Below, in pieces: positions 5,963-6,215 of a DNA stretch of 64,000 bases. This stretch comes from Mobula hypostoma (Eukaryota). Position 1 is the first letter of the stretch, and every line of letters begins with the position of its first letter. The stretch is taken from assembly GCF_963921235.1 (NCBI RefSeq), contig NC_086097.1:138076001-138140000 (forward strand), in the 5' to 3' direction. The notes below the pieces were generated by a model. The model saw nothing but the letters and a program-made list of their open reading frames with translations. It did not search any database and had not been told where the DNA came from. A program made the position numbers and the translations under genes.

Positions 5963-6215
5963 CACAGAGACGAGGAAATCTGCAGATTCTGGAATTTCAA
6001 GCAACACACATTAAAGTTGCTGGTGAACACAGCAGGCCAGGCAGCATCTCTAGGCAGAGGTACAGTCGACGTTTCGGGCCGAGACCCTTCGTCAGGACTA
6101 ACTGAAAGAAGAGCTAGTAAGAGATTTGAAAGTGGGAGGGGGAGGGGGAGATCCGAAATGATAGGAGAAGACAGGAGGGGGAGGGGAGGAGCCAAGAGCT
6201 GGACAGGTGGAGACA
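5963..6215 (-). mobile_element. Penelope-like element (PLE) 3' terminus / pLTR fragment
   Basis: Carries the hammerhead motif and the GATGCTGCCTGGCCTGCTG tail. The same sequence adjoins the GIY-YIG remnant in the 11889-13335 copy. Confidence 0.8.
6063..6100 (-). ncRNA. Minimal type I hammerhead ribozyme (PLE-associated)
   Basis: Minus strand: AGTC-CTGACGA-A-GGG-TCTCGG-CCC-GAAA-CG-TC-GACT. This gives helix I AGTC/GACT, core CUGANGA, helix II GGG/CCC, GAAA, palindromic ACGT helix III and a GUC cleavage triplet. Confidence 0.82.

What the first reader, a model, noticed from the sequence alone, without database searches (positions are those of the whole stretch)
6063..6100. Apparently intact minimal hammerhead ribozyme in a Penelope-like terminus
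Seen: the minus strand reads AGTC CTGACGA A GGG TCTCGG CCC GAAA CG TC GACT, with all core nucleotides, paired helices I and II, one extra A after the CUGANGA box, and helix III reduced to the palindrome ACGT. Predicted cleavage is after GUC, between + positions 6068 and 6067. Established: PLE pLTRs carry minimal type I hammerheads that can cleave as dimers through a palindromic helix III. Inference: this is the only catalytically complete copy in the window and would cut an antisense transcript if a partner motif is available. The class is known; this family and locus may not be characterised.
Basis: partly seen in the sequence, partly recalled or inferred. Interest (0 to 1): 0.72.

Follow-up and report, generated by a model that had tools for sequence, protein, structure and literature searches.

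The report
Minimal hammerhead in Penelope tail fragment
The 38-base motif has every core letter of a minimal hammerhead ribozyme and sits in a 240-base tail fragment of a very abundant, likely Penelope-type jumping gene of a ray-like fish; motifs of this kind are already described, and this lone copy is predicted to be unable to cut itself without a second copy.

Summary
Observation confirmed. Minus strand 6100-6063 reads UAGUC CUGACGA A GGGU-CUCG-GCCC GAAA CG UC GACUG. It is the only hammerhead-descriptor hit in 64 kb, and 0 of 300 shuffles gave a strict hit. It matches the published consensus for minimal hammerheads of Penelope-like elements (PLEs), including the extra A and the palindromic helix III (PMC4209133). 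It lies in a 240-nt 5'-truncated repeat tail inserted antisense into a dead LINE. A related tail in the window sits downstream of a GIY-YIG-type endonuclease remnant on the same strand, so the motif is likely on the element's sense strand, not antisense. The repeat is very abundant (100,571 contigs of one run). Its copies decay at core CpGs about as fast as at loop CpGs. No other copy in the window has an intact catalytic half, and the monomer is predicted to fold into an inactive rod. Cleavage was not tested. This scan has reported the same family repeatedly (81 notes in this genome matched the search). Verdict: a real, probably inert new member of a known kind.

The parts
6063..6100 (-). Minimal type I hammerhead motif (whole)
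   Evidence: Sequence; only descriptor hit; matches consensus in PMC4209133 Fig. S3
6096..6100 (-). Helix I 5' arm (UAGUC), pairs with 6063-6067
   Evidence: Sequence; descriptor
6088..6095 (-). Core box CUGACGA plus the extra A between positions 9 and 10.1
   Evidence: Sequence; the extra nucleotide is a conserved min-HHR trait
6076..6087 (-). Helix II (GGGU/GCCC) with CUCG loop
   Evidence: Pair probability 0.9-1.0 in the 38-mer; C11.1 is U in about half of the depth, which keeps a wobble
6068..6075 (-). GAAA box, palindromic helix III half ACGU (6072-6069) and C17; predicted cut between 6068 and 6067
   Evidence: Sequence; cleavage not tested
6063..6067 (-). Helix I 3' arm (GACUG)
   Evidence: Sequence; descriptor
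5970..6209 (-). 5'-truncated 3' tail (pLTR-type) of a high-copy repeat, likely a Neptune-type PLE; four non-matching letters at 6210-6213
   Evidence: Depth rises at about 5966-5977 and falls at about 6206, with loose ends at 5970, 6209 and 6214; homologous to other window copies
6100..6209 (-). Pyrimidine-rich tract (81% C+T) ending in AG dinucleotides at 6103-6102 and 6099-6098; resembles a 3' splice site
   Evidence: use as a splice site is untested
4567..5969 (+). Host LINE relic (reverse transcriptase pieces), left flank
   Evidence: RVT_1 hits at 4567-5025 (E 1.2e-7) and 5327-5674 (E 7.9e-9)
6214..6328 (+). Host LINE relic 3' part, right flank; about 48 nt of LINE are missing at the insertion site and there is no target-site duplication
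   Evidence: Alignment with other window LINE copies; empty-site loose ends at 6214 and 6219
11891..13330 (-). Older related PLE relic: endonuclease C-terminus (13315-13109), pyrimidine-rich UTR split by a nested LINE (about 12140-12900, +), decayed hammerhead and tail (12106-11895)
   Evidence: tblastn with P0029 E 1.8e-13; nhmmer to the 6 kb copy E 3.8e-12; sequence
18635..18820 (.). Head-to-head inverted pair of 5'-truncated tails joined inside helix II (GGCC); a known PLE insertion signature
   Evidence: Inverted repeat I3; junction; signature described in PMC8557442
21520..21664 (-). Related tail with a broken catalytic half but ACGUC kept

Best explanation
The motif is a complete minimal type I hammerhead sequence in a solo, 5'-truncated tail of a likely Neptune-type Penelope-like retrotransposon, and at this spot it is probably inert. 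In the source elements, which carry one motif in each flanking repeat of a tandem transcript, two motifs would pair through ACGU:ACGU to form a double hammerhead and cut after GUC, probably slowly and with help from the element's protein (inferred from published relatives). Here reverse transcription stopped about 240 nt from the 3' end, and the fragment went into a LINE relic in the opposite orientation, with about 48 nt of target missing (shown by alignment). With no intact partner in the window and a predicted rod fold that ties up the core (GACG/CGUC), this copy likely stays uncut. It looks intact because it is young, not because it is under selection.
For: Motif and shuffle test. Match to the published consensus 'U-rich, helix I, CUGANGAH, G..C, GAAAN palindrome NUH', with near-identical cores listed for Ixodes, Xenopus and sea urchin. 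PLE link: window 13109-13267 (-) finds 46 proteins at E<=0.001. Among them, P0027 and P0029 from a stingray show a CxxxxCxxC-type linker and a GIY-YIG-like segment, and P0027 also shows RT-like motifs. This remnant lies upstream of a tail homologous to the 6 kb copy on the same strand. An inverted truncated pair at 18.7 kb and go-back joints restarting at 6099 are PLE-type partial tandems. In run X1, CpG transitions reach 10.4% at G12, 7.0% at G8 and 5.5% at C17, against 12.5% and 9.5% in loop 2, which is near-neutral decay. Rod fold -12.9 kcal/mol; two rods -25.8 against -16.7 for the double-hammerhead secondary structure. Structure-keeping variants between subfamilies: G10.1.U11.1 in 47-61% of depth; helix I CAGUC/GACUG; and probably CGGUC/GACCG (loose ends).
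Against: No ORF is attached to the 6 kb copy itself. Its PLE identity rests on 71% identity over 125 nt with a sister family. Pfam GIY-YIG hits of the related proteins are below the curated cut-off (18.7 and 16.9 bits against 22.6), and P0027 had no Pfam hit. In-window covariation does not exceed shuffles (84 of 500 reach the score, 5 decayed sequences). Core CpGs G8, C17 and G1.1 decay a little less (5.5-7%) than loop and N7 CpGs (9.5-16.5%), which leaves room for weak constraint. Nearest-neighbour energies ignore tertiary core contacts and protein help. Contig depths are not copy counts. Transcription of this locus was not tested.
Confidence: 0.85

Rival explanations
1. This copy is catalytically used. 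A minus-strand transcript through the locus meets another intact copy, in trans or further along the same RNA, and is cut at GUC.
For: Core complete. The family is abundant enough that partners would be common (100,571 contigs in X1; 3,994 and 4,972 in two runs only guessed to be RNA). Two Mobula gene models contain this tail in sense orientation.
Against: No intact partner and no host gene found in the window. Predicted rod fold. Low or absent activity of published relatives. No loose-end row at 6067/6068 among the 18 rows shown of 780, although contigs cannot show RNA ends.
Confidence: 0.08
2. The tail belongs to a non-autonomous, SINE- or retrozyme-like unit derived from a PLE terminus. It spreads on its own as short units that begin at the ribozyme's 5' edge, rather than as truncated copies of full elements.
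For: Many contigs diverge from this copy exactly at 6098/6099 (313 and 809 contigs, agreement 0.32-0.38), and some joints restart at 6099 to give 30-70 nt partial tandems. Retrozymes derive from pLTRs, and one chondrichthyan has them.
Against: This copy runs 110 nt beyond the ribozyme edge, and relatives continue further upstream (loose ends at 6209). It is solo, not tandem. Part of the 6099 signal is a sister family with a different upstream sequence. No circular junction was seen. This rival changes the label more than the mechanism.
Confidence: 0.12
3. The motif is a chance match, or a non-catalytic RNA or DNA signal that only resembles a hammerhead.
For: No Rfam match; unremarkable folding z-score; no significant covariation in the window; hammerhead mutants did not affect Anolis PLE insertion in vitro.
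Against: 0 of 300 strict hits in shuffles; position-by-position match to a consensus conserved from cnidarians to reptiles; structure-keeping subfamily variants.
Confidence: 0.03

Closest known systems
Minimal type I hammerheads (min-HHR) in pLTRs of metazoan Penelope-like elements (Cervera and de la Pena 2014, PMC4209133; read parts 1-2 of 4 and supplement file 2 part 2 of 3)
   Same: Type I topology, CUGANGAH box with the extra nucleotide, G10.1-C11.1, short helix I, no helix III beyond the palindromic 15.2-16.2, U-rich upstream tract, mostly solo copies from truncated PLEs.
   Different: Helix II is shorter (4 bp against about 6 in the consensus). No cartilaginous fish appears in the part of their alignment that I saw or in my term search of file 2; file 1 could not be searched. 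The family is far more numerous in contig counts than their 4,000-9,000 motifs, though my count is not a copy number.
Hammerhead of Poseidon PAc from Anolis (Frangieh et al. 2024, PMC11167929; read parts 1-2 of 4)
   Same: Vertebrate PLE hammerhead on the element's sense strand within the terminal repeat.
   Different: There the ORF starts within the ribozyme and activity was shown, but only with protein. Here the ribozyme follows a pyrimidine-rich UTR after the endonuclease end of a related element, and relatives have a Zn-knuckle linker (Neptune/Nematis type per PMC8557442, passages read).
Non-LTR retrozymes of animals (PMC7229834, passages read; bioRxiv 10.64898/2026.07.22.740005, parts 1-3 of 5 read, supplements closed)
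   Same: Type I hammerhead, dimer-dependent, derived from pLTRs; the 2026 preprint reports them in one chondrichthyan.
   Different: Retrozymes are tandem arrays of 2 or more units, often with canonical loop-loop hammerheads and circular RNAs. This copy is solo and minimal. The preprint's supplements might list this family and I could not see them.

Membership tests
PLE minimal type I hammerhead (min-HHR) | Core boxes CUGANGA, GAAA and UH in type I order | tested here: met
PLE minimal type I hammerhead (min-HHR) | [quoted passage not shown] | tested here: met
   A6088; G6087-C6076
PLE minimal type I hammerhead (min-HHR) | Helix III reduced to a palindrome (15.1-16.1) | tested here: met
   ACGU 6072-6069
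PLE minimal type I hammerhead (min-HHR) | Covariation in helices I and II among family members | tested here: inconclusive
   Not above shuffles in 5 window copies. A wobble variant and an inferred A-U to G-C change appear in loose-end consensuses of two runs, but the two arms were not seen on one contig
PLE minimal type I hammerhead (min-HHR) | Self-cleavage as a dimer at NUH | not testable with these tools
   Needs an in vitro assay or end-mapping reads
EN+ Penelope-like element | Terminal repeat lies 3' of an RT plus GIY-YIG ORF on the same strand | tested here: inconclusive
   Absent from this truncated copy. Met for the endonuclease end only in the sister copy at 11.9-13.3 kb; Pfam hits below cut-off
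EN+ Penelope-like element | 5'-truncated, partial-tandem and inverted insertion structures | tested here: met
   Head-to-head pair at 18635-18820; go-back joints at 6099
Neptune clade of PLEs | CX2-5CxxC linker before a C-terminal GIY-YIG domain with CCHH, and RT phylogeny | tested here: inconclusive
   Linker visible in relatives P0027 and P0029; no tree built; Nematis shares the linker
Non-LTR retrozyme | Tandem array of two or more units, each with a complete hammerhead | tested here: not met
   Solo copy
Canonical type I hammerhead (Rfam) | Match to Rfam hammerhead models; loop 1-loop 2 tertiary contact | tested here: not met
   No match at E<=1; no internal loop in the 5-bp helix I

The most novel reading that the evidence does not exclude
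In these rays the tail is so abundant, and so often intact, that it acts as a genome-wide dimer-gated cutting element. Two sense-oriented copies in one long pre-mRNA, or an exonised copy entered through the splice-acceptor-like AG at the 5' edge of helix I, pair through ACGU and cut host transcripts. The same boundary, rather than the cut site, defines where element RNAs begin.
Probability: 0.1. Interest if true: 0.6.

Novelty: new member of a known kind. Interest (0 to 1): 0.15.

Why it matters
For this locus, little: it is one young relic among very many. The family as a whole has some value. The function of PLE hammerheads is still open (PMC8557442 notes they may simply parasitise PLEs). 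A very high-copy vertebrate family with several subfamilies is good material for testing whether cleavage shapes insertion ends or host transcripts. I found no paper describing this family in rays: 'hammerhead ribozyme'+'elasmobranch' gave 0 papers, 'Penelope'+'hammerhead ribozyme'+'shark' gave 1 irrelevant mention, and 'Penelope'+'stingray'+'repeat'+'genome' gave 1 irrelevant paper. 'Penelope'+'chondrichthyan'+'transposable elements' listed 6 papers that I did not open. The library lacks subscription papers, Repbase and Dfam, and Lunse et al. (RNA Biol) could not be read.

Tried and rejected
No whole genome is held, so there was no copy count, strand-bias test or full-length element. Pattern scans of metagenome contigs and viral contigs found 0 loci. 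Rfam found no hammerhead; two MIR2118_2 hits at 8074-8180, far below the gathering score, were rejected as chance. A word-index protein search for the endonuclease remnant found nothing in a wrong frame or the right frame; the exhaustive HMMER search found it. A search for a host gene gave no significant Pfam hit in 12 ORFs and no usable Atlas hit for 8582-8797. The bacterial promoter and terminator scan does not apply to this organism. Depth steps in the two runs guessed to be RNA (5.8- and 7.2-fold across the helix I edge against 1.8-fold in DNA) were not used as evidence of splicing, start sites or cleavage: contigs cannot show these, and X18 is flagged as probably DNA. The 33-bp and 28/60-bp satellites contain no descriptor hit and are unrelated. 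The Lunse et al. paper on dimers was not held; I know it only from its title and the review PMC6765202 (passages).

Full report
Observation. The minus strand from 6100 to 6063 reads UAGUC CUGACGA A GGGU CUCG GCCC GAAA CG UC GACUG. All hammerhead core positions are present. Helix I has 5 bp (outer U.G), helix II has 4 bp, there is one extra A after the CUGANGA box, and helix III is only the palindrome ACGU. The predicted cut lies between + positions 6068 and 6067. My descriptor found this one hit in the 64 kb on both strands. In 300 dinucleotide shuffles of the first 22 kb it gave 0.03 loose hits per shuffle and no strict hit. Rfam found no hammerhead at E<=1, and the folding z-score of the 38-mer is only -1.27.

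Surroundings. The motif lies in a repeat fragment spanning about 5970-6209 on the minus strand. Laying public contigs on 5930-6260 puts its edges at about 5966-5977 and 6206-6209, with 100,571 contigs of DNA run X1 laid; this is not a copy number. Twenty listed runs from 11 studies hold the stretch or part of it, among them eight coded organisms. The fragment interrupts a plus-strand LINE relic whose RT pieces hit RVT_1. About 48 nt of LINE are missing at the junction and there is no target-site duplication. Seven related stretches occur between 11.9 and 21.7 kb, and none of the 7 relic sites checked keeps CUGANGA. Translated matches to Mobula gene models at 84-89% identity and endonuclease relatives from Hypanus, Hemitrygon and Rhinoraja indicate a ray-like host (inference).

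Link to Penelope-like elements. Window 13315-13109 (minus) encodes a decayed stretch that finds 46 proteins at E<=0.001 among 1.84 billion. The longer ones show, directly in their sequence, RT-like motifs (P0027), a CxxxxCxxC-type linker and a GIY-YIG-like segment. Pfam supports this only weakly: GIY-YIG hits of 18.7 and 16.9 bits, below the 22.6 cut-off, in 2 of 16 proteins, and nothing for P0027. In the window this remnant is followed on the same strand by a pyrimidine-rich UTR, a nested LINE, and then a decayed hammerhead tail at 12106-11895. That tail is homologous to the 6 kb copy (E 3.8e-12; 71% over 125 nt). Protein P0040 reads through from the same endonuclease end into a stretch that matches this UTR (9 of 10 residues, E 3e-4). 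The hammerhead strand is thus likely the element's sense strand. A head-to-head pair of truncated tails at 18635-18820 and joints that restart at 6099 match the inverted and partial-tandem structures described for PLEs (PMC8557442, passages). The linker points to the Neptune or Nematis type, and Neptune is the one reported in vertebrates; I built no tree. The caveat is that the 6 kb copy has no ORF of its own, so the link runs through a sister subfamily.

Variation among copies. In one search (40 of 48 variant rows shown), 10 of the 11 rows inside the motif are transitions at its five CpGs. In X1 they reach 10.4% at G12, 7.0% at G8, 5.5% at C17, 13.0% at G16.2 and 11.0% at C15.2, against 12.5% and 9.5% in loop 2 and 16.5% at the free position N7. 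This is close to neutral decay after insertion; the slightly lower values at G8, C17 and G1.1 leave weak constraint open. C11.1 is U in 47-61% of depth, which keeps a G.U pair. Loose-end consensuses (18 of 780 rows shown) imply sister families with helix I CAGUC/GACUG and, in runs X10 and X18, probably CGGUC/GACCG, a compensatory change. The two arms come from separate consensuses with agreement 0.35-0.63, so their linkage is inferred. Covariation among 5 window copies does not exceed shuffles (84 of 500). Many contigs leave this copy exactly at the 5' edge of helix I (313 at 6098 and 809 at 6099 in X1); no shown row falls at the cut site. Part of that signal is a sister family's different upstream sequence.

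Mechanism. Shown: the motif, its boundaries, its abundance and its decay pattern. From the literature: minimal PLE hammerheads are inactive as monomers and weakly active as dimers or trimers (PMC4209133). The Anolis one cuts only with the element's protein, is dispensable for insertion in vitro and leaves no ends in RNA-seq (PMC11167929). One of 9 Xenopus dimers cut. Inferred: in tandem source transcripts two motifs pair through ACGU to form a double hammerhead. Cutting at 6068/6067 needs a partner's CUGANGA...GAAAC half, and none exists in the window. The 21.6 kb copy keeps only the substrate half, with a helix I mismatch. Predicted: the monomer folds into a rod in which GACG of the core pairs with CGUC (probability about 1.0 in the 38-mer, 0.4-0.6 in longer context). 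Two rods (-25.8 kcal/mol) beat the double-hammerhead secondary structure (-16.7), ignoring tertiary contacts. I found no host gene in the window. This copy is most likely inert, and intact because it is young.

Comparison and novelty. The published consensus (PMC4209133 supplement) is 'U-rich, helix I, CUGANGAH, G...C, GAAAN palindrome NU H', and it fits at every position. Entries for Ixodes, Xenopus and sea urchin have the same CUGACGAA...GAAACGU core. The extra A is therefore the rule, not a peculiarity. The only difference I see is a shorter helix II. It works like a PLE minimal hammerhead and meets every sequence criterion of that family; catalysis is untested. It is not a retrozyme by the tandem criterion. 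No cartilaginous fish appears in the alignment part I saw, and my searches found no paper on this family in rays (the 6 papers were not opened). The 2026 preprint reports PLE-derived retrozymes in one chondrichthyan, and its supplements are closed. Earlier notes of this scan describe the same family many times. They are unchecked AI notes; their genome-wide counts (such as over 150,000 motifs) were not verified here. One of them directed my attention to the helix I boundary.

Verdict. Observation confirmed, interpretation partly supported, new member of a known kind, interest 0.15. The boldest reading not excluded is dimer-gated cutting of host transcripts by an extremely abundant family, with a splice-acceptor-like boundary at helix I. 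That boundary recalls the Drosophila virilis Penelope intron, which ends at the 5' end of helix I. I give it probability 0.1 and interest 0.6.

Noticed in passing
window 6098-6110 (-): A long pyrimidine tract ends in CAG (6104-6102) and UAG (6100-6098) right at the 5' edge of helix I, like a 3' splice site. The D. virilis Penelope intron is reported to end at the same structural point. Use as a splice site was not tested.
   Followed up: partly
window 6214 and 13330 (+ LINE flanks): Two independent PLE insertions (6 kb and 11.9-13.3 kb) lie antisense in the same kind of LINE 3' region within about 10-20 nt of the same position. One has a deletion of about 48 nt, the other a degenerate duplication of about 13 nt. 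With n=2 this may be chance or a target preference.
   Followed up: partly
joints 6099>6061, 6097>6061, 6099>6069, 6103>6072, 6099>6026: Contigs in run X1 show head-to-tail duplications of just the ribozyme (period about 30-75 nt) elsewhere in that genome. These are natural cis-dimer candidates, better assay targets than this solo copy.
   Followed up: no
proteins P0001 and P0002: Mobula gene models (STARD3NL isoform X3, COASY) include the translated tail in sense orientation. Several other ray models (RECQL5, NMUR1) include PLE endonuclease fragments. These may be exonisation or annotation artefacts.
   Followed up: no
window 22202-52130 and 52347-64000: A 30-kb array of a 33-bp satellite (about 910 copies) directly followed by a 28/60-bp satellite of opposite GC skew.
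   Followed up: no
window 14016-14314 and 6620-6790: Further inverted pairs of older, more diverged PLE-like tails.
   Followed up: partly
window 8074-8180: An imperfect hairpin of about 107 nt gives weak MIR2118_2 matches on both strands, far below the gathering score.
   Followed up: no
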